From NCBI GenBank assembly GCA_036386675.1, contig DASVVE010000016.1, positions 122,561 to 186,560 on the forward strand: a stretch of DNA of 64,000 bases, given 5' to 3'. The notes below the pieces were generated by a model. It was not told the origin of the DNA. It saw nothing but the letters and a program-made list of their open reading frames with translations, and searched no databases. This document shows, in pieces, positions 5,851-19,809 of the stretch (the first letter of the stretch is position 1; each line of letters begins with the position of its first letter). The position numbers were made by a program, and so were the translations under genes. The stretch is from Chloroflexia bacterium. GTDB lineage: Bacteria; Chloroflexota; Chloroflexia; QHBQ01; JADMIH01.

Positions 5851-6912
5851 ATGAAGATACTCTCTGTTGTAGGCGCACGGCCGCAATTTATCAAGGCTGC
5901 TCCCGTGAGCCGGGCTATGTCGAGGGCAGGCGTCGAAGAAGTGCTCTTGCATACGGGGCAACACTACGACCCCGCGATGTCCGAGGTCTTTTTCGCGGAG
6001 CTGGACATTCCCGCGCCACGGCACAACCTGGGGGTAGGTTCTGGCTCGCACGCGGGCCAGACCGCTGCTATGCTTGTGGGCATCGAGCAGGTGCTGCTGG
6101 AAGAACGGCCCGATTACCTGCTGATATACGGCGACACCAACTCCACGCTGGCCGGGGCGCTGTCGGCAGCCAAGCTGGGCGTGCCGGTGGCCCACATCGA
6201 GGCGGGGTTGCGCTCCTACAACCGCGCTATGCCGGAGGAGATCAACCGCGTGGTGGCCGACAGCCTATCCAGCCTGCTCTTCTGCCCGACGGCTGCAGCT
6301 TCGGCCAATCTGCAACGCGAAGGCATCACGGGCGGTGTGTTCGTGATCGGTGACGTGATGTACGACGCCATACTCGACTCTCTGCCACGTGCCGAGGACA
6401 TGGCGTCCTCGCTCCTGTCGCGGATTGGAGTGGAGAGCGGTGGGTACTTGCTGGCGACGGTGCACCGGGCGTCCAACACCGACGACCCACGCAACCTGGC
6501 TAACATAGTAGGGGCGCTGAGCGACTCCGGCATGCCTGTGGTCTTCCCGGTACACCCACGCACCCGGAGGGCGCTGGAACAGGCGGGCGTCGTCCCCGGC
6601 GAAAACGTGCGGCAGGTGGAGCCGGTGTCCTACCTTGAGATGGTGGCGCTGGAAAAGCACGCCCGCAAGATACTCACCGACTCGGGAGGCGTGCAAAAGG
6701 AGGCGATGTGGCTGGCGGTGCCCTGCATCACCATGCGCGACGAGACCGAATGGGTGGAAACGGTGGAGCTGGGTTGGAATACCCTCACCGGCACCGACCC
6801 CGCCCGCATACGAGCCGCCATACAAGCCCCGCGTATCCATTCCACCCCACCCGACGTGTATGGTGATGGACACGCGGCAGAGAATATCGTGAATGTGATA
6901 TGTAACACGTAA
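5851..6912 (+). CDS. UDP-N-acetylglucosamine 2-epimerase (non-hydrolysing), WecB/MnaA family
   Basis: MKILSVVGARPQFIKAAPV...HTGQHYD...GDTNSTLAGALSAAKLGVPVAHIEAGLRS. The ORF-track start at 5758 is upstream of the true ATG at 5851. Confidence 0.85.
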   Translation: MKILSVVGARPQFIKAAPVSRAMSRAGVEEVLLHTGQHYDPAMSEVFFAELDIPAPRHNLGVGSGSHAGQTAAMLVGIEQVLLEERPDYLLIYGDTNSTLAGALSAAKLGVPVAHIEAGLRSYNRAMPEEINRVVADSLSSLLFCPTAAASANLQREGITGGVFVIGDVMYDAILDSLPRAEDMASSLLSRIGVESGGYLLATVHRASNTDDPRNLANIVGALSDSGMPVVFPVHPRTRRALEQAGVVPGENVRQVEPVSYLEMVALEKHARKILTDSGGVQKEAMWLAVPCITMRDETEWVETVELGWNTLTGTDPARIRAAIQAPRIHSTPPDVYGDGHAAENIVNVICNT

Positions 6913-6965
6913 CGCGTAACAGACGGGTGCCATTTACGACTTACGAGTTACGTGTTACGAGTCAC
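6901..6965. repeat. Short palindromic element built of CGTAAC/GTTACG repeats, overlapping the last codons of wecB
   Basis: tgtaacacgtaacgcgtaac...ttacgagttacgtgttacgagtcac. The wecB stop taa (6910-6912) lies inside the left arm. Confidence 0.7.
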
Positions 6966-6983
6966 CAAGGAAGGAAACAAGCC

Positions 6984-8063
6984 ATGATTAACATAGCCCG
7001 GCCCATGATAGGGGAGGAGGAGAAGGCGGCGGTGCTTGCCGTGCTCGAGTCGGGGCAACTCGCCCAGGGGGGCGTAGTGGCCGAGTTCGAGCGGGCCTTT
7101 GCCGACTATTGCGGCGTCAAGCACGCGATTGCCACGAGCAACGGCACTACCGCCCTGCACGTGGCCCTTCTCGCCCATGACATAGGGCCGGGAGATGAAG
7201 TAATTACGGTGCCGTTCACCTTCATCGCCTCGGCTAACTCCGTGCTCTACACCGGGGCGAAGCCTGTGTTCGTAGACATTGAGCCGGACAGCTTCAACAT
7301 CGACGTGGACCAGGTTGAGGCGGCGATTACCCCTCGCACGAAGGCCATCATGCCGGTGCATTTGTACGGTAATATAGCCGAGATGTCGCGCCTTATGGAG
7401 ATAGCAGAGCGGCACGGCCTTGTCGTGATCGAAGATGCCGCCCAGGCGCATGGGGCCGAAGATGGTGGAAAGCGGGCCGGTAGCTGGGGCACGGGCTGCT
7501 TTTCTTTCTACCCGACTAAGAACATCACCACCGGCGAGGGTGGGATGATTACCACCGACGACGACTGCGTAGCCGACAAGGCCCGGCTGGTGCGCGGACA
7601 TGGCATGCGCGTGCGCTACTACCACGAGATGCTGGGCTTCAACTTCCGCATGACCAACATCCACGCCGCGATAGGCATGGCACAACTCCCCAAGCTCGAA
7701 GGCTTCAACGCTCGCCGCATCGAGAACGCCGCGTATTTGAGCGAGCACCTGCCTTCCGACAAGGTGCGCGTGCCCACGGTCCGGCCCGGCACGCGCCACG
7801 TCTTCCACCAGTACACGGTGCGCATACTTCCACCGCTGGACAGGGACGACGCCCGCAAGCAGCTTGCCGAGTCGGGAGTGGGCAGCGAAATCTACTACCC
7901 CGTGCCCGTCCACCGGCAGCAGTTCTACACGGAGCAGGGCGACTGGGGGAGTTTCCCTGTGTCGGAGCAGGCCTCTCAGGAGGTGCTGTCGCTCCCGATC
8001 CACCCAGGCCTCAGCCGCCAGGACCTTGAGACTATTGTAGATGCCGTGCGGGGCCTGGGCTAA
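6984..8063 (+). CDS. DegT/DnrJ/EryC1/StrS-family PLP-dependent sugar aminotransferase (WbpE/PglE-like)
   Basis: MINIARPMIGEEEKAAVLAVLESGQLAQGG...ATSNGTTALH. RBS aaggaagg. The ORF-track start at 6927 is not the real start. Confidence 0.85.
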   Translation: MINIARPMIGEEEKAAVLAVLESGQLAQGGVVAEFERAFADYCGVKHAIATSNGTTALHVALLAHDIGPGDEVITVPFTFIASANSVLYTGAKPVFVDIEPDSFNIDVDQVEAAITPRTKAIMPVHLYGNIAEMSRLMEIAERHGLVVIEDAAQAHGAEDGGKRAGSWGTGCFSFYPTKNITTGEGGMITTDDDCVADKARLVRGHGMRVRYYHEMLGFNFRMTNIHAAIGMAQLPKLEGFNARRIENAAYLSEHLPSDKVRVPTVRPGTRHVFHQYTVRILPPLDRDDARKQLAESGVGSEIYYPVPVHRQQFYTEQGDWGSFPVSEQASQEVLSLPIHPGLSRQDLETIVDAVRGLG

Positions 8064-8065
8064 CG

Positions 8066-9100
8066 ATGAGCAACCCGCCCGGCATGGACTCCCGCCCTCC
8101 GAAGCTAGCCGTCATAGGCGCAGGCTCGATGGGCCGCAACCACCTGCGCGTGCTGAACGACCTGGAGTCGGTGGATCTGGTGGGCGTGGCCGATGCAGAC
8201 CTTGCCACCGCCGAGCGGGTCGCCCGCCGCTTCCACATCTCGGCTTATGGTAGCTACGCCGATCTGCTGGACAGGGAACGGCCTGATGGGGTGGTAGTGG
8301 CGGTGCCCACGGTGCTGCACCGGGAGGTGACGCTGGCGGCCATAGAACGCGGGGTGCATGTGCTGGTGGAGAAGCCGATAGCATTCACGGTAGCCGAGGG
8401 CCAGGAGATGATCGAGGCGGCCCGGCAGGCAGGGGTGATCCTCACGGTGGGGCATATCGAGCGCTACAACCCGGCGATACTGGAGTTGCACAAGCGGCTC
8501 AGGGAGCAGCAGCTTGGCCGGGTCTTCCAGATGAACGCACGCAGGCTCGGCCCCTTCCCGCCCCGCGTGCGTGACGTTGGTGTGGTCATCGATCTGGCGA
8601 CGCACGATGTCGACATAATGCGCTTCTTGAGCGGCTCGGAAGTGGTGCGGGTGCAGGCCGAGACCGCCCGCCGCATCCACACCGAGCACGAGGACCTGCT
8701 GTCCGGGCTGCTCCGTTTCGAGAACGACTCGATTGGTGTGCTAGATATTAACTGGCTGACGCCCACCAAGATACGCGAGCTGATGATTACCGGGGAGCGG
8801 GGCGCGTTCCAGGTGAACTACCTGACCCAGGACCTATACTTCTACGAGAATAATTACGCCAAGACCGACTGGGACACCATCTCGAACATCGAGGGGGTGA
8901 GCGAGGGCGACATGGTCCGCCTACGCATCGAGAAGACCGAACCGCTACGCGTGGAACTTGACCGATTCGCCCGCGCCATCAGGGGCGAAGAAGTGTCCAT
9001 AGTATCGGGCGAGGACGGGCTGCACGCCCTGCACGTAGCTACAAAAATTGTGGAGTCGGGGCTAGAGGGTAGGGCCATCTATTTGAGCGAGGAAGGTTAG
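8066..9100 (+). CDS. Gfo/Idh/MocA-family NAD-dependent oxidoreductase (WbpB-like UDP-sugar 3-dehydrogenase)
   Basis: N-terminal Rossmann fold KLAVIGAGSMGRNHL and the EKP motif of the Gfo/Idh/MocA family. Adjacent to the aminotransferase. Confidence 0.8.
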   Translation: MSNPPGMDSRPPKLAVIGAGSMGRNHLRVLNDLESVDLVGVADADLATAERVARRFHISAYGSYADLLDRERPDGVVVAVPTVLHREVTLAAIERGVHVLVEKPIAFTVAEGQEMIEAARQAGVILTVGHIERYNPAILELHKRLREQQLGRVFQMNARRLGPFPPRVRDVGVVIDLATHDVDIMRFLSGSEVVRVQAETARRIHTEHEDLLSGLLRFENDSIGVLDINWLTPTKIRELMITGERGAFQVNYLTQDLYFYENNYAKTDWDTISNIEGVSEGDMVRLRIEKTEPLRVELDRFARAIRGEEVSIVSGEDGLHALHVATKIVESGLEGRAIYLSEEG

Positions 9101-9103
9101 GTC

Positions 9104-10408
9104 TTGGAGAAAGCAGCGCGGAGTGAGTACAGAGTAGCGGTCGTGGGCCTGGGCAAGATCGGCCTGCCCCTGGCGGCGCAGTTCGCGCACAACGGCCTGG
9201 AGGTCATGGGCTGCGACATATCCCAAGAGGTAGTAGATACCATCAACTCCGGGCACTCCCACGTCAAAGAGGAGCCGGGGCTTGAAGAGATGGTAGCCGA
9301 GGGAGTGAGCGCGGGCCGCCTTACCGCCACCATCGACACGTCCGCCGCCGTAAGCCGCTGCAACGTGGTAGTTGTGATTGTACCGCTGATGGTGGACGAG
9401 GGGCGCAACATCGATTATCGAGCTATTGATTCCGCCACTCGCTCGGTCGCTGAGGGGTTGCAGCGCGAAACGCTGGTCATATACGAAACGACGCTGCCCG
9501 TGGGCACCACGCGCACCCGGCTGGGTTCGATGTTGGAGCAGGGTTCAGGGCTGGCTGCCGGCCGCGATTTCTGCCTGGCGTTCAGCCCTGAGCGCGTCTA
9601 CAGCGGTCGTATATTCAGCGACTTGCACAAGTACCCCAAGGTGGTCGGCGGGGTGACGCCGGAGTGCACAGCTTCTGCCGAGCGTTTCTACGCCGTGGCC
9701 CTGGAAGGCGCGCCCGTATTGCCCATGCGCGATGCCGATACCGCCGAGTTCGTCAAGCTGGTCGAGACCACCTATCGCGACGTGAACATCGCCCTCGCCA
9801 ACGCCTTCGCCCGCTTCGCCGCCGAGCGCGACATACCTGTGCTAGAGGCGATTGCGGCGGCCAACACGCAGCCTTTCTCCCACGTCCACCGGCCCGGCAT
9901 AGCGGTGGGCGGGCACTGCATCCCTGTCTACCCCTACTTCCTGATGAACAGTACCGAGGACGACGGTATGTCGCTGGTACGGCGCGCCCGCGAGCTTAAC
10001 GACAGCATGGTAGCGTGGGCGCTCGACCGGCTTGAGGAGTCGCTGGGCGGGTTGAGCGGCAAGAGGGTGCTGGTGCTGGGGCTAGCATACCGGGAGAACG
10101 TCAAGGAAACGGCTTTTTCCGGGGCCGTCCGCCTGCTGAGCGAGTTGAAGGCGCGGGGCGCGGTGCCTCTCATCAACGACCCGCTCTACAGCACCGAGGA
10201 ACTCGCCCGCTACGCCGAGCCTAGCCAACTGGACGACCTGCCTGCCTTCGATGCGCTGGTGCTCCAGGCGTACCACGAGGAATACCGCAACCTCGATTGG
10301 ATCCGCATGTCAGAGCATGGTTGCAAGGTGGTGCTCGACGGACGCAACGCGCTCGCTCGCGCCGAAATAGAGGGCTCCGGTATGCGCTACACCGGCATAG
10401 GGCAATAG
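9104..10408 (+). CDS. UDP-sugar 6-dehydrogenase (UDP-GlcNAc/ManNAc dehydrogenase, WbpA/WecC family)
   Basis: RVAVVGLGKIGLPLAAQF with nucleotide-sugar dehydrogenase central and C-terminal domains. TTG start. Confidence 0.85.
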   Translation: MEKAARSEYRVAVVGLGKIGLPLAAQFAHNGLEVMGCDISQEVVDTINSGHSHVKEEPGLEEMVAEGVSAGRLTATIDTSAAVSRCNVVVVIVPLMVDEGRNIDYRAIDSATRSVAEGLQRETLVIYETTLPVGTTRTRLGSMLEQGSGLAAGRDFCLAFSPERVYSGRIFSDLHKYPKVVGGVTPECTASAERFYAVALEGAPVLPMRDADTAEFVKLVETTYRDVNIALANAFARFAAERDIPVLEAIAAANTQPFSHVHRPGIAVGGHCIPVYPYFLMNSTEDDGMSLVRRARELNDSMVAWALDRLEESLGGLSGKRVLVLGLAYRENVKETAFSGAVRLLSELKARGAVPLINDPLYSTEELARYAEPSQLDDLPAFDALVLQAYHEEYRNLDWIRMSEHGCKVVLDGRNALARAEIEGSGMRYTGIGQ

Positions 10409-10456
10409 CCCGTGAGTTCCGATGCCTGACGCTGTCAAGAAGGTGGGTGTTCGCGC

Positions 10457-11647
10457 ATGAAGGTCCTCTGTATATTCGGCACGCGGCCGGAGGCGATCAA
10501 GATGGCCCCTGTGCTCCACCACTTGCGCCAATACCCGGGCACCATCAGCGCCAAGGCTTGCGTGACCGGGCAGCACAGGCAGATGCTCGACCAGGTGCTA
10601 CAGGTCTTCGACATCCAACCCGATTACGACCTGTCTATCATGACTGAGGACCAGACCCTTGCTACACTGACGGCCAGGGCACTTACCGCCCTCGACCCGG
10701 TCATCGCGCAGGAACGGCCGGACTGGATATTGGTGCAGGGCGATACCACCACCGCTATGGTGGGTGCGCTGGCGGCCTTCTACCATCGCCTGCAAGTGGG
10801 GCACGTCGAAGCCGGGTTGAGGACCTGGAACAAATACCATCCCTATCCCGAAGAGATCAACCGGAGAATAGTGGATTGCATCGCCGATCTGCATTTTGCC
10901 CCGACACAATGGGCGGCTGATAATTTGTTGCGGGAGGGGGTGCCGGAGAGTGGCGTGCTCGTCAGTGGGAACACCGTTGTAGACGCTCTCATCTCCGTCA
11001 CCGAAAAGCCGCTGTCCGAGCAGACCGAGCGTATACTTAGGGAGTTGGGAGTTTCCCCGGAAAGAGGTCACTCGGACCCGACAAGTGGCCTGTCGCTCGC
11101 GGCACGGGGTCACGGTCCGCCATTGCTCCTGGTAACTGCCCACCGCCGCGAGAACTTCGGCGGCCCCCTGGAGAACATATGTGACGCCCTGGGTGAAATC
11201 GCCAGGCGGCGGAGTGACGTACGCATCGTGTTCCTGGTGCATCTGAACCCCAACGTCCAGAAGGTAGTGCGTTCTCGCCTGGGGGAAGCAAAGAACATAA
11301 GCCTGATACCGCCCGTTGACTATCAGACGATGGCCCACCTGATGAAGCATTCCTACCTGATACTTACCGATTCGGGCGGGCTACAGGAGGAAGCGCCGAC
11401 GTTCCACGTGCCTGTACTGGTGATGCGCGAAACCACCGAGCGGCCGGAGGCCCTTGAGGCTGGTACGGCCCGGCTGGTAGGCACTCAGGCTGAGGATATA
11501 GTAGATCACGTGTCGCGCCTTCTCGACCGTTCGGATGAATATCGCGCCATGTCGGGGGCGCCGAACCCTTTTGGTGACGGGCATGCCGCCCCACGTATAG
11601 TGAAGGCCCTGATGGAGCGCAGCTCCAGGTTAGCGTACAGAGGCTGA
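10457..11647 (+). CDS. Second UDP-N-acetylglucosamine 2-epimerase paralog (WecB/WbpI-like)
   Basis: MKVLCIFGTRPEAIKMAPV...TGQHRQMLDQVL...GDTTTAMVGALAAFY...VEAGLRT. Confidence 0.85.
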   Translation: MKVLCIFGTRPEAIKMAPVLHHLRQYPGTISAKACVTGQHRQMLDQVLQVFDIQPDYDLSIMTEDQTLATLTARALTALDPVIAQERPDWILVQGDTTTAMVGALAAFYHRLQVGHVEAGLRTWNKYHPYPEEINRRIVDCIADLHFAPTQWAADNLLREGVPESGVLVSGNTVVDALISVTEKPLSEQTERILRELGVSPERGHSDPTSGLSLAARGHGPPLLLVTAHRRENFGGPLENICDALGEIARRRSDVRIVFLVHLNPNVQKVVRSRLGEAKNISLIPPVDYQTMAHLMKHSYLILTDSGGLQEEAPTFHVPVLVMRETTERPEALEAGTARLVGTQAEDIVDHVSRLLDRSDEYRAMSGAPNPFGDGHAAPRIVKALMERSSRLAYRG

Positions 11648-11677: not shown

Positions 11678-13018
11678 TTGAACAAGTTTTTACCACCCTG
11701 GGCCAGAAATAAGCGTGCGGCGATGCTGCCGATAGGGTCGGTACGAGCGCGCCTGGCCTCCGGCACCTTCTGGGCGGTAATCGGGGCGGTACTATCGCAG
11801 GTGCTGGCATTGGTGGCTGCCGTCATTGTGGCGAGGTTGTTGGGCCGCACGGGCTTCGGGGAGCTAGGCATCCTCATCAGCACGGTCGGCACGTTCGGGA
11901 TAGTCGCGGGACTGGGGCTGGGTACCACCGCCACCAAGTACGTGGCCGAGCTACGTACAAGCGACCCGGCGCGTGCGGGGCAAATCCTCGGCTTATCAAT
12001 CTGGACTGCCGTGGTGACGGGCAGCCTTGCATCGGTGCTGCTCTTTGTGCTCGCGCCGGTGCTTGCGGCGGACGTCATCAACGCCCCTCACCTGGTGAAC
12101 GAGCTACGCCTGAGTTGCGGAGTGCTATTCTTCAGCGCCCTCAACGGCGCGCAACTGGGCGTGCTCTCGGGTCTTGAGGCGTTCAAACCCCTTGCCTACT
12201 TGAACGTGGTACGAGGGTTGCTTCAATTCCTCCTGACCGTAGCGGGGGTGGTGCTGTTCGGCTTTGTGGGAGCCGTGCTTGCGCTCGTAGCGGGCAATGC
12301 TCTGGCCTGCGCGCTCTATGAAGTGGCGGTTCGACGTGAGTGCCGCCGCGCCAACATCAAGTTTGAGTACCGGGGTACTCGTTCCGAGTGGCGCATTTTG
12401 TGGACGTTCGCCTTTCCCGCTTTCATGTCCGGAGCGATGTATACGCCTGTTGTCTGGGCGGGGAACGCGGCGCTGGCTAATCAGCCGAACGGGCTGGATG
12501 AACTCGGCTTGTTCAACGCCGCCAACCAGTGGCGCATGGCGATGATGTTCCTCCCCGGCGTGCTGGGTCAGGTTGTGATGCCTATCTTATCCAACTTATA
12601 CGGCGAGGGACGTGGCAGTAGCTATCGCAAGGTGTTGTTCGGCAACCTGGCGATTACGTTTGTCCTGAGCTTTGGCGCGGCGCTCGTACTTATCCTGGCC
12701 GCGCCCCTCATCATGTCGGCCTACGGCAGCGACTTCACTCAGGGCACGCAGGTACTCATACTCATGCTCCTTTCAACGGTACTCACATCAACCTCGGGCG
12801 TGGTCGGATACAGCATAGCGAGCCAGGACCGCATGTGGCACGCCTTCTGGCTCAATCTCATATGGGCGGCGGCTTTCGGCCTCTTCGTCTACCTCTTCAT
12901 CGGTCTGAAAGCTTATGGGCTGGCGCTGGCGTACCTGCTCTCCTACGCTATACACGCCGTCACGAGCACGTTGTATATGGTCTGGTCCCTTAAAAACAAG
13001 CGAGTGGCCGATGCCTAG
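11678..13018 (+). CDS. MOP-superfamily oligosaccharide flippase (Wzx-like)
   Basis: 446 aa with ~12 TM and a Polysacc_synt-like profile. TTG start at 11678; an alternative ATG is at 11723. Confidence 0.7.
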   Translation: MNKFLPPWARNKRAAMLPIGSVRARLASGTFWAVIGAVLSQVLALVAAVIVARLLGRTGFGELGILISTVGTFGIVAGLGLGTTATKYVAELRTSDPARAGQILGLSIWTAVVTGSLASVLLFVLAPVLAADVINAPHLVNELRLSCGVLFFSALNGAQLGVLSGLEAFKPLAYLNVVRGLLQFLLTVAGVVLFGFVGAVLALVAGNALACALYEVAVRRECRRANIKFEYRGTRSEWRILWTFAFPAFMSGAMYTPVVWAGNAALANQPNGLDELGLFNAANQWRMAMMFLPGVLGQVVMPILSNLYGEGRGSSYRKVLFGNLAITFVLSFGAALVLILAAPLIMSAYGSDFTQGTQVLILMLLSTVLTSTSGVVGYSIASQDRMWHAFWLNLIWAAAFGLFVYLFIGLKAYGLALAYLLSYAIHAVTSTLYMVWSLKNKRVADA

Positions 13019-14282
13019 AGTGCTGGTAATAAGATACGAGGGCCAACCTTTCCTGGTGAGGATGTCGAAGCTGCTGAGGACGATGCTCGACTCCGGCTGG
13101 CAGGTGGACGTGCTGATTCCCAGGGGCGGGTTGGGTGCGACAAACGTCTCTAAGGAAATGGGGCGCGACCTCACCGGGGAAGTAACATTGCTGGAGTTTC
13201 CCCATGAACTTCCCCGCACGATACCAGAGAGGTTGCTATATCGTCTCTCCGGGACGGGCTTCTTCGGCAGCAGCGAGTTCCGGCGCTACCTGACCGGTCT
13301 CCTTTCGAGGCAGAAGTACGACCTTATCTGGGCCAAGGATACGCCTATACTCCCGGCTGTCTTTCATGCGATAAAGAGGTCCGGCCACCCTCCGGTGCGG
13401 GTCGTGTGCGACATGTACGAGAATATCACCGAGCAGGTCTATGATACGTTCGTACGATACGGCAAGCTGTACGAACGGCTGTTGACGCAGGCTTCGCTGC
13501 TGATTAGCCGCCTGCGCCGGGCTGAGAGGCTATACCTTGCACGCTGCGACCATATATTCGTTGTGGTGGATACGGCCAAGACTTTTCTTGTGAAGCGCTA
13601 CGGTCTCGAGCCGTCCCGCATAACGGTAGTGCACAACGTCGAGATTCTGTCGGACTTCGACCGGATCGAGCCTGGACAGCCACTGCTTGATACGGACGTG
13701 CCGCTCATTTCCTTCGTCGGCGGTTTCGGCCCCCATCGTGGCATAGACACGCTGCTGGAGGCTGTGGCGCTGCTGGTTTCAAGGGGTGAGACGCGCTTCC
13801 GGCTGGCCCTGGTTGGTGCTTCCGGCTCGGAGCTTGCTCGCCTGGAAAGCGTCTGCCGGGAGCGCGGCCTGCAAGAGGTAGTTGTGCTGCGGGGGTATCT
13901 CTCACACCGCGAGGCGATGCGCTGGATGAAGCAGTCGAATATCGGTGTCATTCCGCACGTGAACACGCCGCAGATCAGAACTACCATACCAAATAAGTTG
14001 TTCCAGTATATGGCTGCCGGGGTACCTTGTATCGTGTCCGATGTGGGGCCGCTCGGCAGGATCGTGCGTCAGACAGGCTGTGGTCTTACCTTCCCGGCGG
14101 GGAACGCGCCGGAGCTAGCGGCTAGAATCGCCGATTTGCTGGCACACCCGGAGCAGATGCTGGAGCTTGGCAGGAACGGCAGAGCCAGTGTCGAGCGCCA
14201 ATACAGGTGGGAGATAGAAGGGCAAGAGTATGCTCGTTACCTCCTGGGCGTCATGAGTGCTATCCAGGACGTAAGCAAATAG
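13011..14282 (+). CDS. Glycosyltransferase family 4 (GT-B)
   Basis: C-terminal EX7E-type region (FVGGFGPHRGIDTLLEAV...IPNKLFQYMAAGVPCIVSD). The ATG at 13011 overlaps the flippase stop, so the ORF-track start at 12915 is too early. Confidence 0.8.
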   Translation: MPRVLVIRYEGQPFLVRMSKLLRTMLDSGWQVDVLIPRGGLGATNVSKEMGRDLTGEVTLLEFPHELPRTIPERLLYRLSGTGFFGSSEFRRYLTGLLSRQKYDLIWAKDTPILPAVFHAIKRSGHPPVRVVCDMYENITEQVYDTFVRYGKLYERLLTQASLLISRLRRAERLYLARCDHIFVVVDTAKTFLVKRYGLEPSRITVVHNVEILSDFDRIEPGQPLLDTDVPLISFVGGFGPHRGIDTLLEAVALLVSRGETRFRLALVGASGSELARLESVCRERGLQEVVVLRGYLSHREAMRWMKQSNIGVIPHVNTPQIRTTIPNKLFQYMAAGVPCIVSDVGPLGRIVRQTGCGLTFPAGNAPELAARIADLLAHPEQMLELGRNGRASVERQYRWEIEGQEYARYLLGVMSAIQDVSK

Positions 14283-14291: not shown

Positions 14292-14300
14292 TGCTATACT
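14292..14300 (+). promoter_or_regulatory. Extended -10 promoter (TGcTATAcT) positioned for a leaderless transcript of the downstream GT-like gene
   Basis: tgctatact ends 7 nt before the ATG at 14308, and no RBS is present. Confidence 0.4.
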
Positions 14301-14307
14301 TTTAGTT

Positions 14308-15399
14308 ATGGGACGCACACGGGAGCCGGTTTCTCACTTATCCAGGCCGCGAATCCTCCACGCCCCCGCGAACATAGCGGGCATAGCGGGACTCCTCGCA
14401 CAGGCGCAACGGGACCTGGGCATCGACTCTACATCCGTCGAGTACTTTCAACGACCCTTCAGCTTTGGCGTTGACAGGACGCTAGCTTTGCAAGCCACGG
14501 ACGGGCGTGTCAAGAAAGCGGCCGCGATGGGCAGGTTCGCACTGGGTGCCCTTGCGCGTTACGACGTGTTTCACCTCTATTTCGGTAACACTTTGCTGCC
14601 GCGTCCATACCCTGATTTGCGGCTGCTTCGCGCGCTCGGCAAGCGTATTGTCTTCCACTTTTGCGGCTGTGAGTTGCGGCGACGGGAACCAAACGTCACC
14701 AAGTATTCGCTCAGCGCCTGCACCGATTGCGTGTCACACAGGTGTTCGTACCTGAAACACCCAGACCTCTCTTCGGCTGACGTGCTGATAGTGTCCACAC
14801 CCGACCTGCTCGAATTCGCTCCAGGGGCGCACGTATTGCCGGGGCCGGTGGACCTCGACCGCTGGACGCCAAAGGTCTCGCGTGGGGTACCGGTATCCAG
14901 GTCCGAGCCGGTACGGATCGTTCACGCGCCGACGAACCGGGAAGTAAAAGGTACCAAACATCTGCTTGCCGCGGTTGAGCGCCTCAACAGTGCCGGGTAC
15001 CCGGTTGAACTCGACCTGCTGGAGGGATTGCGGCACGAGCAAGTGCAGGTGCTCTCCGGGCGGGCGGATATCGCGGTGGACCAGCTGATGATTGGCTCAC
15101 ATGGCACCTTCTCGGTTGAGATGATGGCAATGGGCCTGCCGGTGGTCTGCCGCATACGTGAAGACTTGCGGAAGTTCTATCCACCCGACTTGCCTGTGAT
15201 AACCGCAGAGCCGGGCAGCATCTACGAGGTGCTGGAGTCGCTAATAACGCGGCCGGACACCTGGGCGGAACATGGCAGGCGTGGTATCCGGTACGTGCAA
15301 CGCGAGCACGAGATGCACCGTGTGGCCGCACGCGCCCTGTCGCTCTACAAAGTGGGCCTCAGTACGGCTGTCGCTGAGTACGTGGCAGCCGAGGCGTAA
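14308..15399 (+). CDS. GT-B-fold glycosyltransferase-like protein with a conserved Cys cluster (paralog A)
   Basis: C-terminal half is GT4-like (KGTKHLLAAVERL...SVEMMAMGLPVVC). Unusual insertion HFCGCELRRREPNVTKYSLSACTDCVSHRC. Confidence 0.6.
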   Translation: MGRTREPVSHLSRPRILHAPANIAGIAGLLAQAQRDLGIDSTSVEYFQRPFSFGVDRTLALQATDGRVKKAAAMGRFALGALARYDVFHLYFGNTLLPRPYPDLRLLRALGKRIVFHFCGCELRRREPNVTKYSLSACTDCVSHRCSYLKHPDLSSADVLIVSTPDLLEFAPGAHVLPGPVDLDRWTPKVSRGVPVSRSEPVRIVHAPTNREVKGTKHLLAAVERLNSAGYPVELDLLEGLRHEQVQVLSGRADIAVDQLMIGSHGTFSVEMMAMGLPVVCRIREDLRKFYPPDLPVITAEPGSIYEVLESLITRPDTWAEHGRRGIRYVQREHEMHRVAARALSLYKVGLSTAVAEYVAAEA

Positions 15400-15481: not shown

Positions 15482-16612
15482 ATGAAACGTACATGGGAGC
15501 CGGTGCATCTCAAACATAGACCCAGGATACTCCATGCTCCGGCCAATGTCGCGGGCAGAGCCGGACTACTCGCCAGGGCGCAGCGTGACCTTGGTTTTGA
15601 CGCAACATCCGTCGAATACTTCCAACGTCCCTTCGACTTTGGTGTGGACCGGTCGTTAGGTCTGCGGCCGGCGGATGGCCGGGTGAAAAAAACGGCCAGG
15701 ATGGGCATGTTTGCCCTCGGTGCCTTCAGGCGGTACGATGTGTTCCATCTCTATTTCGGTAACACTTTGCTGCCGCACCCTTACCCGGACTTGCCGGTCC
15801 TTCGCTCCCTGGGTAAACGCATTGTCTTTCATTTTTGCGGCTGTGACATACGCCAGCGGGAATATACCCTCGATAAGTATTCACTCAGTGCGTGCACAGA
15901 CTGTATCTTGCAACCGTGCAAGCACGCGAGACACCCGGACCTCTCCGCGTGTGACATCGTCTCTGTGTCGTCGCCGGACTTACTGGAGTTCGCTCCGGGG
16001 GCGCAGCTGCTGCCGGGACCGATTGACCTGGAAAAATGGAGGCCGAAGGTATTGCGCCGGGAGCCGCCATCCCACTCTGACCCCGTACGTATCATTCACG
16101 CACCGACCGACCGCGACATAAAGGGTACTAAATACCTGCTTGCCGCAGCCGAGCGGCTCAAGAGTGCCGGGTACCCTGTGGAAGTTACCCTCCTGGAGGG
16201 CCTATCCCACGACCAGATACACGTGCTCTCCGAGCAGGCCGATATCGTGGTGGACCAACTGATGCTCGGCGTACATGGCATGTTTGCCGTCGAGATGATG
16301 GCAAGGGGCCTGCCCGTAATATGCCGGATACGCGAGGACCTGAGACGGTTCTATCCTCCCGACCTACCCCTAATCACGGCAGAGCCGGGCAGCATTTACG
16401 ACGTCCTCGAATCGCTGCTTACTCAGCCGGAGCGTTGGGCTGACCTCGGCCGCCGGGGCATCGAGTACGTACGGCGCGAGCATGAGATGCACCGTGTGGG
16501 GGCTCTTTCCCTGTCGCTGTATAACGTGCACGTGGATACGAGCATCAAGTCTACGCTACACGACGCTGTTCCTGGTTCTAATGGCTTCGAGAGCGAGCTA
16601 AGGCAAAATTGA
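15482..16612 (+). CDS. GT-B-fold glycosyltransferase-like protein with a conserved Cys cluster (paralog B)
   Basis: Roughly two-thirds identical to paralog A by eye; same HFCGCDIRQREYTLDKYSLSACTDCILQPC motif. Confidence 0.6.
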   Translation: MKRTWEPVHLKHRPRILHAPANVAGRAGLLARAQRDLGFDATSVEYFQRPFDFGVDRSLGLRPADGRVKKTARMGMFALGAFRRYDVFHLYFGNTLLPHPYPDLPVLRSLGKRIVFHFCGCDIRQREYTLDKYSLSACTDCILQPCKHARHPDLSACDIVSVSSPDLLEFAPGAQLLPGPIDLEKWRPKVLRREPPSHSDPVRIIHAPTDRDIKGTKYLLAAAERLKSAGYPVEVTLLEGLSHDQIHVLSEQADIVVDQLMLGVHGMFAVEMMARGLPVICRIREDLRRFYPPDLPLITAEPGSIYDVLESLLTQPERWADLGRRGIEYVRREHEMHRVGALSLSLYNVHVDTSIKSTLHDAVPGSNGFESELRQN

Positions 16613-16654: not shown

Positions 16655-18178
16655 GTGCTGTCCAGGCTCTCTAGTCTCTCCAAAGATGCCGTCGTCTACG
16701 GGCTGGCCGGGGCCGTCGCGCGCGTCTCCGGGCTGGTGCTCCTGCCTGTGTACACCCGCGTCTTCGAGGACACAGAGAGCTACGGCGTATGGCAGATAGT
16801 GAGCATCTTCGGCGCTTTGCTGGTGGCGGTGGCCGCGCTGGGTCTTGACGGCGCGACCTCAATCCTCTACTTCGCGACCGACTCCCCTGACGAGCGGAAG
16901 CGCATCACTACGCTGTGGGCCTCTATGTCGCTGGTGGTGGCGGTGCCGCTTACCCTGCTGCTCGTTCTGCTCTCCGGCCCGATTTCCAGCCTGACCACCG
17001 GCTCGGAGCGGTATACGGACCTCTTTATTGTAGGCATAGCCCTGCTGCCGTTCAACATACTGCAACTGGTGGTGGCGGGCATCTTGCGCTTGCACTTCCG
17101 ACGCCTAGCTTACGCCGCGCTCAACCTGGGGCTGACGGTCTTGGTGCTCTCCACAAGCATCTACCTGGTGGTTGGCCTCCGCATGGAGGTGATGGGCGCG
17201 CTGCTGGGCACGCTGCTGGGCACGGCGGTGGCCGCAATCGCCGGCCTATGGACGGTGCGCTCCGCCGTCGATTGGCGGCTGCTGACTTCGGAGGCCTGGC
17301 CTCTGGCTGCCAGGCTGCTCCAACTGGGCGCGCCCCTGGTGCCGGCGGCTGCCGCCCTGTGGGTACTCGGCTTCTCCAATGCCTTCTTCGTGGCTCGCCT
17401 CCTCAGTACCAGCGATACCGGCGTTTTCCGCGTCGGCGCGCAGATCGCCTCGGTGCTGGGGATAGCGGTGTACGCTTTCCAGTTCGCGTGGTCGCCGTTC
17501 AGCCTCTCCATAGCGCGGGAGCCTGATGCCGGGAAGGTCTATTCCAGGGTAGGGATACTCTATACCGCGGTTTCGGTGGGAGCCGCCGTCCTGCTGGGTG
17601 GGGCCGCTCCCATAGTGCTGCTGCTGGCAAGGGGTGACTACGCCCCGGCCGCTACGGTAATTGGGCTGCTTGCCCTGTCCATGGCCTCGGTCGGCTCGTA
17701 CTATATCTTTGCGGTAGGCGGGGGTATCGCCCAGCGGACCGGGCCGGTGGGTTGGACCAACGTGGTCGCGGCCATCGCCAACGTCGCCCTCAACGCCGCA
17801 CTCATCCCGCTCTGGGGCATCGTGGGCGCGAGTATTGCTTCGCTGGCCGCGAATCTATTATCTATAATACTCCTCTATACCGTGTCGCAACGCATCTACC
17901 CGGTACCCTTCGACGGGTTGAGGATGGCGGGCGTCTGGCTGGTGGGTACGGCGGCGGTAGCAATTGCGGCCCTGTTCAACATCTCGGTACAACCGTCACC
18001 GCTGATGTCGATGGGGTTTACGCTCCTGCTCATGCTAGGTTACGTAGTGGCGCTCTTCCTCATGGGCGCGGTCACGCCTCGACAGCTATCGTTGGGGCTG
18101 GCGGGGGTCAGGTCGGCGCTGGGGAGAGGTCCGGCCGCCCCGGTATCGGGGGGCACGGCGGGCGAGGGCAGGAGGTAG
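16655..18178 (+). CDS. Second MOP-family polysaccharide biosynthesis/flippase protein (507 aa, ~14 TM)
   Basis: GTG start; hydrophobic throughout with a Polysacc_synt-like N-terminus (VVYGLAGAVARVSGLVLLPVYTRVF). Confidence 0.7.
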   Translation: MLSRLSSLSKDAVVYGLAGAVARVSGLVLLPVYTRVFEDTESYGVWQIVSIFGALLVAVAALGLDGATSILYFATDSPDERKRITTLWASMSLVVAVPLTLLLVLLSGPISSLTTGSERYTDLFIVGIALLPFNILQLVVAGILRLHFRRLAYAALNLGLTVLVLSTSIYLVVGLRMEVMGALLGTLLGTAVAAIAGLWTVRSAVDWRLLTSEAWPLAARLLQLGAPLVPAAAALWVLGFSNAFFVARLLSTSDTGVFRVGAQIASVLGIAVYAFQFAWSPFSLSIAREPDAGKVYSRVGILYTAVSVGAAVLLGGAAPIVLLLARGDYAPAATVIGLLALSMASVGSYYIFAVGGGIAQRTGPVGWTNVVAAIANVALNAALIPLWGIVGASIASLAANLLSIILLYTVSQRIYPVPFDGLRMAGVWLVGTAAVAIAALFNISVQPSPLMSMGFTLLLMLGYVVALFLMGAVTPRQLSLGLAGVRSALGRGPAAPVSGGTAGEGRR

Positions 18179-18180
18179 CG

Positions 18181-18600
18181 GCGAGTGCCGAGTGCGAACG
18201 ACCGGCTAATGGTACTTATCCTACCATCCTGGTACCCTACTGGGAGGTACCCGATGGGTGGGGTCCTCATGGAGGAGCAGGCGCGGCCTCTATACTGAAG
18301 AAGCGTGGGGTTGAAGTGATGTTGGACCTTATGGGAGATGGCCGCAACGGACGCGAATACGCGGCGACCGGCGTGGCCGACCTATGCCGTTTCCATGATA
18401 CGCTGCGACATGAGGAAGTAGTCAAAATGATACGTGGTTATGATGTGCTGGTGGTGTGCTCCCTTGCCGAGACCTTTGGGGTGGTGGCGGTGGCGGCGAT
18501 TGCCCCGGAGTGCCGGTGGTGGCGACACGCTCTGGCGGGCCGGAGGGGATAGTGACGGCCACCAGGGCGGCACTTTACAGGGAAGTCCTAGGGGGTTGCG
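18181..18600 (+). pseudogene. Remnant of a GT4 glycosyltransferase (C-terminal domain only, frameshifted)
   Basis: Frame 1 encodes ...ILKKRGVEVMLDLMGDGRNGREY...EEVVKMIRGYDVLVVCSLAETFGVVAVAAIA, then the +1 frame encodes PVVATRSGGPEGIV. No N-terminal GT domain is present because the fragment directly abuts the flippase stop. Confidence 0.6.
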
Positions 18601-18606
18601 GTTAAT

Positions 18607-19809
18607 ATGAAAGTGCTGATGATCGTGCAGGAGCCGGTAATCACCCGGCGCATCCTCCAGGAAGCCCGCAGCCTCATAGAAGCAGGGCACAGCGTCAGCA
18701 TCCTTTCGCGCGCCGGGGGCACGGAAGATACGGTTGAGGAAGTGGACGGCATAACTGTGGAATGGGTGGCCGTGAGGGGCCGCGATCCTCGCTTTGGTTG
18801 GCTTTACCGCCTGGTGGGCGACAACCTCGGCAGCAACGTGGCCGCCCTGTGGAGCGTGCTGACGATGCGTCACACCTTTACCTTGAGGGCCTTCGCCAGG
18901 GCTGTAGCGGCTAAAGCGGACGTGTATCACGCGCACGACCTGAACAACCTTGAGCTTGCCTGCCGCGCCGCTCGGTCGAACGAGGCTCGCGTAGTATTCG
19001 ATTCCCACGAGCTATTCACCGAGCTAGGCAACCGCTGGATACAGTTGAGGCGCAGGGCCTGGACGAGGCTGGAGAGCAAGCTCATCAAGCGGGCGGAATT
19101 CGTGGTGACGGTCAACGAGTTCATCGGTGAAGAACTAGCCACGCGGTATGGCGTGCCTGCCCCGCTCGTAGTGATGAACTGCCCCGATCCACCATCTGAC
19201 TTCGACCCCTCCAAGGGCTACAACATCCTCCGCGAGCGCCTCGGAATGTCTTCCGATCGCAAGATTGTGCTTTACCAGGGCTGGATGTCGGAGGGGCGGG
19301 GCCTCGAAAGCCTGGTGAGGTGCGCGCCCCTGCTGGCGGATGACGCGGCGGTGGTCTTCATAGGCTACGGCGACTACCAGGAGGTGCTGGCGCGTATCGC
19401 GCTGGAGGAAGCGCCGGGGCGGGTGTACTTTCTCCCGGCTGTGTCCCACCGTGAGCTGCTGCCATACTGCGCCTCGGCTGACGTGGGCCTCATCCCCTAC
19501 CAGGCCGTGGACCTGAACAACTACTATTCCTCGCCCAACAAGCTCTTCGACTACATCCAGGCTGGTCTGCCGATAGTCGCCAGCGACTTCCCGTTCCTGC
19601 GCAAGGTAATAGCCACCGACAACCTGGGCGTGGTGGCCGAGTTGAGCACGCCGGAGAGCTACGCCAGGGCCATCAACCAGGTGCTGACCCTGCCCGATGG
19701 CGGTGAGCAAATACGGTCCAACATGCGCCGCGTCGCCCCAGGTTACACGTGGCAGAGCCAGGCACGCGGGCTGGTCTCGGCATATGAAAAGCTGTCAGCG
19801 GGCGGCTGA
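18607..19809 (+). CDS. Glycosyltransferase family 4
   Basis: 400 aa; YHAHDLNNL...FIGYGDYQEV...SPNKLFDYIQAGLPIVASD. Confidence 0.85.
   Translation: MKVLMIVQEPVITRRILQEARSLIEAGHSVSILSRAGGTEDTVEEVDGITVEWVAVRGRDPRFGWLYRLVGDNLGSNVAALWSVLTMRHTFTLRAFARAVAAKADVYHAHDLNNLELACRAARSNEARVVFDSHELFTELGNRWIQLRRRAWTRLESKLIKRAEFVVTVNEFIGEELATRYGVPAPLVVMNCPDPPSDFDPSKGYNILRERLGMSSDRKIVLYQGWMSEGRGLESLVRCAPLLADDAAVVFIGYGDYQEVLARIALEEAPGRVYFLPAVSHRELLPYCASADVGLIPYQAVDLNNYYSSPNKLFDYIQAGLPIVASDFPFLRKVIATDNLGVVAELSTPESYARAINQVLTLPDGGEQIRSNMRRVAPGYTWQSQARGLVSAYEKLSAGG

What the first reader, a model, noticed from the sequence alone, without database searches (positions are those of the whole stretch)
5851..19809. Polysaccharide locus combining a UDP-2,3-diacetamido-uronic-acid-type pathway with two flippases and two 2-epimerases, but no 3-N-acetyltransferase
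The WbpA-like dehydrogenase (9104-10408), WbpB-like Gfo/Idh/MocA oxidoreductase (8066-9100) and WbpE-like aminotransferase (6984-8063) are the core of the Pseudomonas B-band UDP-ManNAc(3NAc)A route. The two WecB-like epimerases could supply the WbpI step. The left-handed-beta-helix acetyltransferase step (WbpD) is not encoded here, and no Wzy, Wzz or initiating transferase is present in the window. Two MOP flippases in one locus is also unusual. The sugar made may therefore be a 3-amino rather than 3-acetamido derivative, or the locus is split.
Basis: partly seen in the sequence, partly recalled or inferred. Interest (0 to 1): 0.5.

Follow-up and report, generated by a model that had tools for sequence, protein, structure and literature searches.

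The report
Split diacetamido-uronic-acid sugar locus in Chloroflexia
This is an ordinary cell-surface polysaccharide gene cluster from an uncultured Chloroflexia bacterium, and its "missing" acetyltransferase was not lost but sits on another contig of the same genome bin.

Summary
Window 5851-19809 carries eleven co-directional genes: a WbpI-type 2-epimerase, a DegT aminotransferase, a Gfo/Idh/MocA sugar 3-dehydrogenase, a nucleotide-sugar 6-dehydrogenase, a true WecB 2-epimerase, two MOP flippases, two GT4 transferases and two paralogous GT-like proteins. No hexapeptide acetyltransferase, Wzy, Wzz or initiating transferase is detectable anywhere in the window.

The gap is real and lineage-specific. 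In 62 of 70 related loci a WlbB/WbpD-like gene lies in the locus. In the closest relatives that keep it, it sits exactly between the epimerase and the aminotransferase, where the window has 71 nt. Six independent assemblies of the window's clade lack it there.

The gene was relocated, not lost. The window's own MAG encodes an intact WlbB-like protein (HEX8598124.1) on another contig, 448 accession numbers from the window's oxidoreductase (HEX8597676.1). A sister-species MAG has the same split. The relocated gene's tree position mirrors the oxidoreductase tree.

The first epimerase keeps the three residues that mark UDP-GlcNAc3NAcA epimerases. The product is therefore most likely standard UDP-ManNAc3NAcA. 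The second epimerase and first flippase belong to a strain-variable cassette. The finding is ordinary and of low interest.

The parts
5851..6912 (+). epim1: WbpI/WlbD-type UDP-GlcNAc3NAcA 2-epimerase
   Evidence: Pfam Epimerase_2. Best PDB match is 8sxv, the T. thermophilus UDP-2,3-diacetamido-2,3-dideoxy-glucuronic acid 2-epimerase, at 395 bits, against 147 bits for E. coli WecB. It carries Ala18, Tyr96 and Trp307. Members of its 90% cluster are named 'UDP-GlcNAc3NAcA epimerase'. dN/dS is 0.06-0.07.
6895..6965 (+). Hairpin built of short tandem repeats in the epim1-aminotransferase spacer, at the place where relatives carry the acetyltransferase gene
   Evidence: Inverted repeat with 25-nt arms, 84% complementary. 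RNA fold -30.2 kcal/mol, z = -4.05. L174 and L168 have analogous hairpins with different repeat units. No acetyltransferase remnant is detectable.
6984..8063 (+). DegT-family aminotransferase, taken as the WbpE-equivalent 3-aminotransferase from its operon context
   Evidence: Pfam DegT_DnrJ_EryC1, 451 bits. PDB scores: perosamine synthase 319 bits, WbpE 245 bits. It is the conserved neighbour of the oxidoreductase in 70 of 85 well-flanked loci. dN/dS is 0.04.
8066..9100 (+). Gfo/Idh/MocA UDP-sugar 3-dehydrogenase (GnnA / archaeal UDP-GlcNAc 3-dehydrogenase type)
   Evidence: NF040723 scores 333 bits, below its cut-off of 450. Best PDB match is 7bvj (GnnA) at 108 bits; WlbA 3q2i scores 85 bits. 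JGI names its homologues 'UDP-N-acetylglucosamine 3-dehydrogenase'. dN/dS is 0.02-0.03.
9104..10408 (+). Nucleotide-sugar 6-dehydrogenase (the group that holds WecC, Cap5O and TviB); the operon's C6 dehydrogenase
   Evidence: TIGR03026 scores 343 bits, above its cut-off. PDB: 4r16 at 252 bits, Cap5O at 219 bits. Orthologues at 47-91% identity follow the oxidoreductase in loci that also carry the acetyltransferase.
10457..11647 (+). epim2: bona fide WecB UDP-GlcNAc 2-epimerase; first gene of a strain-variable cassette
   Evidence: TIGR00236 scores 478 bits against a cut-off of 210. E. coli WecB (1vgv) scores 405 bits, 8sxv only 176. It has Met, Gln and Arg at the three specificity positions. 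It is absent from L168, L169 and L008 and present in L174 and L009.
11678..13018 (+). MOP flippase 1 (Wzx-like); part of the cassette. JGI calls its start at 11723.
   Evidence: PF01943 scores 90.6 bits against a cut-off of 28.2. NCBI names it 'oligosaccharide flippase family protein'.
13011..14282 (+). GT4 glycosyltransferase; part of the cassette
   Evidence: Hits Glycos_transf_1 and Glyco_transf_4. The 13011 start matches the 423-aa gene called on the metagenome contig and the NCBI protein HEX8597680.1.
14308..15399 (+). par1: Cys-rich GT-like protein (Glyco_trans_1_2 C-terminal part), tandem paralogue of par2
   Evidence: PF13524 scores 29 bits. It is 72% identical to par2. Family members lie in or next to acetyltransferase-aminotransferase-oxidoreductase loci in Kribbella, Pimelobacter and Demequina.
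15482..16612 (+). par2: the second tandem paralogue
   Evidence: Its orthologue in L008 is 70% identical.
16655..18178 (+). MOP flippase 2 (divergent); part of the core locus shared with L168 and L008
   Evidence: No direct Pfam or NCBIfam hit. It is 32% identical over its full length (E 5e-71) to L171 14490-15962, which hits PF01943 and PF13440. It has 14 TM-like segments. JGI names it 'O-antigen/teichoic acid export membrane protein'.
18607..19809 (+). GT4 glycosyltransferase, the last gene of the locus
   Evidence: Pfam GT4 domains. 83-91% identical in L008 and L168. It is followed by convergent oligopeptide ABC ATPase genes.

Best explanation
The locus is the larger part of a split Wbp/Wlb-type pathway in an uncultured Chloroflexia bacterium, fused to glycan-assembly genes. 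It makes UDP-2,3-diacetamido-2,3-dideoxy-D-mannuronic acid (UDP-ManNAc3NAcA).

Encoded in the window:
- the C3 dehydrogenase (8066-9100);
- the 3-aminotransferase (6984-8063);
- the C6 dehydrogenase (9104-10408);
- the final WbpI-type 2-epimerase (5851-6912).

The 3-N-acetyltransferase (WlbB/WbpD-type, 197 aa, HEX8598124.1) is encoded at a second site on another contig of the same MAG. There it lies beside a second N-acetylhexosamine-type dehydrogenase and an SLH-domain protein. In the ancestor of this clade the gene moved out of its usual slot between the epimerase and the aminotransferase.

The WecB epimerase, the first flippase, one GT4 and one paralogue form a strain-variable cassette. It probably adds a ManNAc-type residue and its own export step. 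The remaining GT-like genes and the second flippase build and flip a lipid-linked glycan. The initiating transferase and any polymerase or ligase lie elsewhere.

Shown: gene families, absence of the acetyltransferase from the window, synteny, relocation, specificity residues and purifying selection.

Inferred: substrates, the order of the steps (the GnnA-like dehydrogenase may act on UDP-GlcNAc before C6 oxidation) and the identity of the final polymer (possibly a cell-wall polymer of this probably monoderm lineage).
For: 1. Relatives carry the acetyltransferase in the locus. 62 of 70 well-flanked loci with an adjacent aminotransferase hold a WlbB-like gene. In L006, L007, L170 and L171 (oxidoreductase 70-78% identical) it sits between epim1 and the aminotransferase. 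Its best PDB match is WlbB 3mqg.

2. The window, L168, L169, L174, L009 and L010 all have epim1 followed directly by the aminotransferase, with spacers of about 70-175 nt.

3. The sister MAG GCA_030156005.1 holds both sites. The window-like locus carries oxidoreductase MDQ5823004.1. The unlinked acetyltransferase is MDQ5823760.1, on contig 22.

4. The window's own MAG holds both sites.
   - Window proteins are HEX8597671 to HEX8597708. The acetyltransferase P0236 is HEX8598124.1, flanked by HEX8598123 and HEX8598125.
   - P0236 occurs in ERZ27253081 and SRR10954973, the two samples that hold the window's exact proteins.
   - GC is 0.594 for the window and 0.602 for the second site. Both sites are 87.8% identical at the DNA level to their counterparts in the sister MAG.

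5. The second-site acetyltransferases form a clade nested inside the Chloroflexia operon copies. That placement mirrors the oxidoreductase tree.

6. P0236 matches WlbB over its full length at 145 bits, and its dN/dS is 0.033.

7. epim1 scores 395 bits to the characterised UDP-GlcNAc3NAcA 2-epimerase and has Ala18, Tyr96 and Trp307. epim2 has Met, Gln and Arg, as WecB enzymes do.

8. dN/dS of epim1, the aminotransferase and the oxidoreductase is 0.02-0.07 within the clade.
Against: - The two sites are joined only by MAG binning and accession order, not by a contiguous sequence. A binning error repeated in two MAGs is unlikely but possible.
- No enzyme was assayed.
- The oxidoreductase and the aminotransferase are not closest to WbpB/WlbA and WbpE among solved structures, and the NF040723 score is below its cut-off. 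Substrates and step order are therefore uncertain.
- The in-locus dehydrogenase is closest to UDP-ManNAc dehydrogenases. With the adjacent WecB it could instead, or also, make UDP-ManNAcA.
- The second-site acetyltransferase might serve the neighbouring dehydrogenase in a different pathway.
Confidence: 0.8

Rival explanations
1. The acetyltransferase step is truly absent from the pathway. The locus delivers a 3-amino sugar (UDP-GlcNAc3N(A) or its manno epimer), either free or acylated by an unrelated enzyme.
For: No WlbB-like gene is in the window. The loss from the operon slot is shared by at least six assemblies. GnnA/GnnB-type pairs are known to make UDP-GlcNAc3N for lipid A (established knowledge; GnnA = 7bvj).
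Against: An intact, conserved WlbB orthologue is present in the same MAG and in the sister MAG. Its phylogeny indicates relocation of the operon copy. epim1 keeps Trp307, Ala18 and Tyr96, which accommodate the 3-acetamido group and the C6 carboxylate. Other lineages also scatter these genes, for example L012, L013, L026 and L047.
Confidence: 0.07
2. The window holds two independent two-step pathways rather than a Wbp pathway. WecB plus the adjacent dehydrogenase would make UDP-ManNAcA. The oxidoreductase-aminotransferase pair would make UDP-GlcNAc3N for another purpose.
For: The dehydrogenase is closest to UDP-ManNAc dehydrogenases (4r16 at 252 bits, Cap5O at 219 bits, NF040825 at 303 bits) and lies next to a true WecB. 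The oxidoreductase is closest to UDP-GlcNAc 3-dehydrogenases.
Against: Orthologues of this dehydrogenase (47-69% identical) are the only dehydrogenase in many five-gene clusters (acetyltransferase, aminotransferase, oxidoreductase, dehydrogenase, epim1) that lack any WecB. WecB is missing from the 97%-identical relatives L168 and L169, which keep the dehydrogenase. epim1 is a specific UDP-GlcNAc3NAcA-type epimerase and would have no substrate. A dual role for the dehydrogenase is not excluded.
Confidence: 0.1
3. The GNAT acetyltransferase at 2314-2829, upstream of plsX, replaces WbpD non-orthologously.
For: A GNAT (Acetyltransf_3) lies 3 kb upstream of the locus in the window, L168, L169 and L174. 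Relatives that keep the operon acetyltransferase, L007 and L171, have a PIG-L gene at that position instead. It gives weak hits to PseH and WecD.
Against: It is separated from the locus by plsX and two opposite-strand genes. tblastn found no GNAT in L009 or L010, which also lack the operon acetyltransferase and have plsX directly upstream of epim1; L010 has only about 800 nt upstream of plsX, so only L009 is informative. Its best family hits are generic or RimI-like and lie far below their cut-offs. A true WlbB orthologue exists elsewhere in the genome.
Confidence: 0.03

Closest known systems
Wbp/Wlb pathway for UDP-ManNAc3NAcA (P. aeruginosa WbpA/B/E/D/I; Bordetella WlbA-D; the five-gene set of Thermus thermophilus HB27, PMC10622841)
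   Same: The same five enzyme types exist in the genome: a C6 dehydrogenase, a Gfo/Idh/MocA C3 dehydrogenase, a DegT aminotransferase, a WlbB-type left-handed beta-helix N-acetyltransferase and a WbpI-type 2-epimerase with the Ala18/Tyr96/Trp307 signature.
   Different: The acetyltransferase is unlinked, on another contig. The C3 dehydrogenase belongs to the GnnA/archaeal UDP-GlcNAc 3-dehydrogenase branch rather than the WlbA branch. The aminotransferase is not closest to WbpE. The host is a Chloroflexia bacterium, probably without LPS (my own knowledge of the phylum, not tested here).
GnnA/GnnB (UDP-GlcNAc 3-dehydrogenase and transaminase for GlcN3N lipid A) and the archaeal UDP-GlcNAc 3-dehydrogenase family (NCBIfam NF040723)
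   Same: These are the closest characterised relatives of the oxidoreductase (7bvj at 108 bits, NF040723 at 333 bits), and they also pair with a DegT transaminase.
   Different: Here the pair sits in an operon with a C6 dehydrogenase and a UDP-GlcNAc3NAcA-type epimerase, and no lipid A genes are present. The NF040723 score is below its equivalog cut-off of 450.
WecB/WecC (MnaA/Cap5O) route to UDP-ManNAc and UDP-ManNAcA
   Same: epim2 passes the WecB equivalog model (478 bits against a cut-off of 210) and has the WecB residues. The adjacent dehydrogenase is closest to UDP-ManNAc dehydrogenases.
   Different: The dehydrogenase is the ancestral partner of the diacetamido operon and is present in relatives that lack WecB. 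It fails both WecC equivalog cut-offs (303 against 750; 235 against 459).
ManNAc3NAcA-containing secondary cell wall polymer of Geobacillus stearothermophilus (PMC4232325)
   Same: It is a precedent for this sugar as the anionic component of a cell-wall polymer in a bacterium without an outer membrane. SLH-domain proteins flank the relocated acetyltransferase.
   Different: No chemical data exist for this organism, and the link is only by analogy. In Geobacillus that polymer binds S-layer proteins that lack SLH domains.

Membership tests
Wbp/Wlb UDP-ManNAc3NAcA pathway | WbpI/WlbD-type 2-epimerase specific for UDP-GlcNAc3NAcA (Ala18, Tyr96, Trp307 in place of the Met/Leu, His/Gln, Arg of WecB) | tested here: met
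   epim1 scores 395 bits to 8sxv and has A, Y and W at the three positions.
Wbp/Wlb UDP-ManNAc3NAcA pathway | WbpD/WlbB-type left-handed beta-helix 3-N-acetyltransferase encoded with the other genes | tested here: not met
   It is absent from the window. An orthologue, HEX8598124.1, is present on another contig of the same MAG and scores 145 bits to WlbB 3mqg. The feature is therefore met for the genome but not for the locus.
Wbp/Wlb UDP-ManNAc3NAcA pathway | Gfo/Idh/MocA C3 dehydrogenase of the WbpB/WlbA type acting on UDP-GlcNAcA | tested here: inconclusive
   The family is correct. WlbA 3q2i scores 85 bits and 3q2k 72 bits, but GnnA 7bvj scores 108 bits and the archaeal UDP-GlcNAc 3-dehydrogenase model 333 bits. 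The substrate (UDP-GlcNAc or UDP-GlcNAcA) cannot be told from sequence.
Wbp/Wlb UDP-ManNAc3NAcA pathway | WbpE-type PLP 3-aminotransferase | tested here: inconclusive
   DegT family, with WbpE at 245 bits but perosamine synthase at 319 bits. It is the conserved neighbour of the oxidoreductase and, in relatives, of the acetyltransferase.
Wbp/Wlb UDP-ManNAc3NAcA pathway | WbpA-type UDP-N-acetylhexosamine C6 dehydrogenase | tested here: inconclusive
   It passes TIGR03026 (343 against 190). No WbpA reference was available. It is closest to UDP-ManNAc dehydrogenases. It is the conserved fifth gene of the operon in relatives.
WecB non-hydrolysing UDP-GlcNAc 2-epimerase | Passes the TIGR00236 equivalog model and has Met/Leu, His/Gln and Arg at the sugar C3/C6 contact positions | tested here: met
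   epim2 scores 478 bits against a cut-off of 210 and 405 bits to E. coli WecB, and has M, Q and R.
MOP (Wzx-like) flippase | Polysacc_synt domain and a 12-14 TM topology | tested here: met
   flip1 hits PF01943 at 90.6 bits. The 507-aa protein has no direct hit, but it is 32% identical over its full length to a protein that hits PF01943 and PF13440 and has 14 TM-like segments.
Complete Wzx/Wzy-dependent polysaccharide locus | Initiating phosphoglycosyl transferase (WecA/WbaP type), Wzy polymerase and Wzz chain-length regulator in the locus | tested here: not met
   No gene of the window hits Glycos_transf_4, Bac_transf, Wzy_C or Wzz. A divergent Wzy could escape Pfam.

The most novel reading that the evidence does not exclude
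Moving wbpD out of the operon, next to a second dehydrogenase and SLH-protein genes, uncouples N-acetylation from the rest of the pathway. The cell could then make both a 3-amino and a 3-acetamido uronic acid, or regulate surface charge. Alternatively the two contigs belong to different organisms and this clade really makes a free-amine sugar. In addition, the operon shared by Chloroflexota and Actinomycetota may run in a different order (C3 oxidation of UDP-GlcNAc first, GnnA-like) from the Pseudomonas pathway.
Probability: 0.08. Interest if true: 0.45.

Novelty: new member of a known kind. Interest (0 to 1): 0.2.

Why it matters
The main value is as a caution. A pathway step missing from a gene cluster in a MAG window does not mean altered chemistry. 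Here the gene moved elsewhere in the genome, and this could be shown from public data alone.

The result also documents that the diacetamido-mannuronic-acid pathway, known from Gram-negative O-antigens, Thermus and Geobacillus cell-wall polymers, is widespread in Chloroflexota, Dormibacterota and Actinomycetota. In those phyla it uses a GnnA-like 3-dehydrogenase.

It also gives a clean residue-level way to tell the two epimerase types apart.

Tried and rejected
- The metagenome-contig scan with the oxidoreductase returned only relatives at or below 58% identity. It did not help map the loss, and only added to the co-occurrence statistics.
- Relaxed tblastn for a remnant of the acetyltransferase in the 71-nt spacer and across the whole window found nothing better than E = 0.13.
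- The GNAT at 2314-2829 was considered as a replacement and rejected. tblastn found no GNAT in L009, which has 6.6 kb upstream of plsX, and it gives only generic family hits.
- The par1/par2 paralogues were considered as hidden acyltransferases and rejected. The family co-occurs with the hexapeptide gene in Kribbella, Pimelobacter and Demequina loci.
- The second-site dehydrogenase was tested as the Anaerolineae-type operon dehydrogenase. It is not; it is 33-39% identical to those, as is the window's dehydrogenase.
- Pfam at E <= 10 gave nothing for the 507-aa membrane protein. Its family was established by transitive homology instead.
- A full-text search for 'UDP-N-acetylglucosamine 3-dehydrogenase' found no useful paper.

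Full report
**What is in the window**

Positions 5851-19809 hold eleven co-directional genes:
- an Epimerase_2 protein (epim1, 5851-6912);
- a DegT aminotransferase (6984-8063);
- a Gfo/Idh/MocA oxidoreductase (8066-9100);
- a UDPG_MGDP_dh dehydrogenase (9104-10408);
- a second Epimerase_2 protein (epim2, 10457-11647);
- a Polysacc_synt flippase (11678-13018);
- a GT4 transferase (13011-14282);
- two tandem paralogues, 72% identical, with a weak Glyco_trans_1_2 match (14308-15399 and 15482-16612);
- a 507-aa membrane protein (16655-18178);
- a GT4 transferase (18607-19809).

Convergent oligopeptide ABC ATPase genes bound the locus on the right. On the left lie plsX and two opposite-strand genes.

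The 507-aa protein has no direct Pfam or NCBIfam hit, even at E <= 10. It has 14 TM-like segments. It is 32% identical over its full length (E 5e-71) to a protein that hits PF01943 and PF13440. NCBI and JGI name it as a polysaccharide export protein. The 'two flippases' observation therefore holds.

The source is a Chloroflexia MAG.

**The missing step is really missing here**

- The precomputed Pfam lists for all called genes on the window's contigs contain no Hexapep/LbH protein and no Wzy_C, Wzz, Bac_transf or Glycos_transf_4.
- tblastn with five WlbB-like proteins against the whole window gives nothing better than E = 0.13.
- NCBI numbers epim1 and the aminotransferase consecutively, HEX8597674 and HEX8597675.
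- The spacer between them is 71 nt and folds into a repeat-built hairpin.

**Is that unusual?**

I fetched 80 genome loci and 80 metagenome loci around homologues of the oxidoreductase. I added several contigs by exact protein look-up and mapped the genes by tblastn.

Across Chloroflexota, Dormibacterota and Actinomycetota the usual unit is acetyltransferase, aminotransferase, oxidoreductase, dehydrogenase and epim1. Of 70 loci with an adjacent aminotransferase and at least 3 kb of flank on both sides, 62 hold the acetyltransferase. That protein is WlbB-like: its best PDB match is 3mqg at 138 bits.

The nearest relatives that keep it are L170, L171, L006 and L007, with the oxidoreductase 78, 75, 72 and 70% identical. 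In all four it sits exactly between epim1 and the aminotransferase. L007 and L171 also lie next to plsX, as the window does.

The window and five other assemblies of its clade have epim1 followed directly by the aminotransferase:
- L168 and L169 (97% identical oxidoreductase);
- L174 (96%);
- L009 (83%);
- L010 (81%).

The gap is therefore a shared, lineage-specific rearrangement and not an assembly artefact.

**Where the gene went**

A search with the acetyltransferase of L170 returned a group of 197-aa proteins. Accession numbers then linked them to the window-type locus.

- In the sister MAG GCA_030156005.1, the window-like locus carries oxidoreductase MDQ5823004.1 on contig 6. That locus is 88% identical to the window at the DNA level. 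It is collinear with the window from the upstream flank through the first paralogue (window 300-15364), including epim2, the first flippase and the first GT4.
- The same MAG carries a WlbB-like protein, MDQ5823760.1, on contig 22.
- A 98% identical copy, P0236 = HEX8598124.1, occurs in ERZ27253081 and SRR10954973. These are the two samples that contain the window's exact proteins.
- The window's own proteins are HEX8597671 to HEX8597708. The acetyltransferase is 448 accession numbers away, in the same MAG submission, on a 77.8-kb contig.
- GC content is 0.594 for the window and 0.602 for the second site. Both sites are 87.8% identical at the DNA level to their sister-MAG counterparts, which fits one genome.

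At the second site the gene lies between a sulfite-oxidase-like gene and a convergent second nucleotide-sugar dehydrogenase. That dehydrogenase is named 'UDP-N-acetyl-D-glucosamine dehydrogenase' by JGI and is 35% identical to the window's dehydrogenase. An SLH-domain protein follows.

P0236 matches WlbB over its full length at 145 bits, and its dN/dS against the sister copy is 0.033.

In neighbour-joining trees the second-site proteins form a clade nested within the Chloroflexia operon copies. They are sister to those of L170, L171 and L006. This mirrors the oxidoreductase tree. The pattern indicates relocation of the orthologue, not loss plus foreign gain. These are simple distance trees without bootstrap support.

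**What the enzymes are**

epim1:
- It scores 395 bits to the T. thermophilus UDP-GlcNAc3NAcA 2-epimerase (8sxv) and 147 bits to E. coli WecB.
- Thoden et al. 2023 (PMC10622841) give three substitutions that distinguish this enzyme from UDP-GlcNAc epimerases: Arg to Trp307, Met/Leu to Ala18, and His/Gln to Tyr96.
- epim1 and its orthologues have Ala, Tyr and Trp at those positions.

epim2:
- It has Met, Gln and Arg at the same positions.
- It scores 405 bits to E. coli WecB and passes the WecB equivalog model at 478 bits against a cut-off of 210.

Oxidoreductase:
- It is closest to UDP-GlcNAc 3-dehydrogenases. NF040723 scores 333 bits, below its cut-off of 450. GnnA (7bvj) scores 108 bits.
- WlbA (3q2i) scores only 85 bits.

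Aminotransferase:
- It scores higher to perosamine synthase (319 bits) than to WbpE (245 bits).

Dehydrogenase:
- It is closest to UDP-ManNAc dehydrogenases.

For the last three enzymes the pathway role rests on conserved operon context rather than on closest homologue. The step order may differ from the Pseudomonas pathway, with C3 oxidation of UDP-GlcNAc coming first. All four core genes are under strong purifying selection within the clade, with dN/dS of 0.02-0.14.

**Two epimerases and two flippases**

The 97%-identical relatives L168 and L169, and also L008, lack epim2, the first flippase, the first GT4 and one paralogue. In that position they carry a fused GT-methyltransferase gene. They keep the 507-aa flippase and the last GT4. 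L174 has the cassette.

The duplication of functions therefore reflects a strain-variable cassette, as is usual for surface polysaccharide loci. The cassette probably adds a ManNAc-type residue, but that is inference.

**Likely product and role (inferred)**

The genome most likely makes UDP-ManNAc3NAcA, plus UDP-ManNAc and perhaps UDP-ManNAcA. These would be assembled on a lipid carrier and flipped by the MOP proteins.

ManNAc3NAcA is the anionic component of a secondary cell wall polymer in Geobacillus stearothermophilus (PMC4232325). SLH-domain proteins neighbour the relocated gene. A cell-wall polymer is therefore a reasonable guess, but it is untested.

**Verdict**

'Split locus' is right, and the '3-amino product' is not supported.
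- This is a new member of a known pathway type, with a relocated gene and a GnnA-like dehydrogenase. Interest is low.
- The main caveat is that the two sites are linked by binning and accession order in two MAGs, not by a contiguous sequence.

Noticed in passing
window 5572-5618 and 5699-5745: A 47-nt inverted repeat, 98% complementary with an 80-nt loop, lies in the intergenic region just upstream of epim1. Its core, GTCATCCTGAGCGCAGCGAAGGATC, occurs only in these two arms in the window. It may be a MITE/REP-like element or a regulatory hairpin.
   Followed up: partly
window 6895-6965; L174 about 8800-8905; L168 about 8745-8915: The epim1-aminotransferase spacer, where relatives carry the acetyltransferase gene, is a hairpin built of short tandem repeats. 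The units are of the form GTAACNC in the window and GTGACGA/GTGATGA in L174 and L168. The sequences differ between species but both arms change together. The RNA fold z-scores are -4.05 and -4.67. It may be a rearrangement scar or an intra-operon terminator or processing site.
   Followed up: partly
window 14308-15399 and 15482-16612: These tandem paralogues are 72% identical. They carry a Cys-rich motif (HFCGC...C..C....C) and only a weak Glyco_trans_1_2 match. Family members lie inside or next to acetyltransferase-aminotransferase-oxidoreductase loci in Kribbella, Pimelobacter, Demequina, Dormibacterota and Solirubrobacterales. They are candidate transferases for the diacetamido sugar.
   Followed up: partly
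window 19549-19689: In the public metagenome assembly ERZ27253081 the window is split into two contigs, k141_408646 and k141_117764. By my mapping of locus coordinates they overlap by 141 nt inside the last GT4 gene. The ORF and its GT4 domain read through the junction, so the join looks correct. The break suggests strain variation at this point.
   Followed up: partly
window 10457-15399 compared with L168 12356-13984: The locus is a mosaic. The window and L174 carry epim2, a flippase, a GT4 and a paralogue where L168, L169, L008 and L010 carry a fused GT1-methyltransferase gene. The window's 507-aa flippase aligns to L168's at the DNA level (about 85%) but gave no blastn alignment to L174's.
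   Followed up: partly
window 2314-2829: A GNAT (Acetyltransf_3) gene lies upstream of plsX in the window, L168, L169 and L174. Relatives L007 and L171 have a PIG-L deacetylase-family gene there instead.
   Followed up: partly
L176 (ERZ27253081 k141_268431) 1-20594: The second site holds more than the relocated acetyltransferase. It also carries a second N-acetylhexosamine-type dehydrogenase, SLH-domain proteins, a 771-aa PMT_2/TMEM260-like GT-C protein and a 1298-aa protein with DUF2298 and NHL domains. It may be another cell-envelope glycosylation neighbourhood.
   Followed up: no
window about 25000-31000: G+C drops to about 0.50, against about 0.60 elsewhere. The region encodes a 1003-aa DUF6185 protein, a 374-aa hypothetical protein and the start of a 1469-aa protein that has only faint F5_F8_type_C hits. 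It may be an acquired island.
   Followed up: no
window 45117-46640 and 47018-49075 (minus strand): Two large ORFs of 507 and 685 aa have no Pfam hit even at E <= 10 and essentially no TM-like segments. They are not Wzy-like membrane proteins.
   Followed up: partly
L012, L013, L041, L046, L049, L026, L028, L047: Other lineages also scatter the pathway genes. Some have the oxidoreductase and dehydrogenase without an adjacent aminotransferase. Some have the acetyltransferase directly next to the oxidoreductase. Ktedonobacterales loci have no acetyltransferase within 10 kb, or have it downstream.
   Followed up: no
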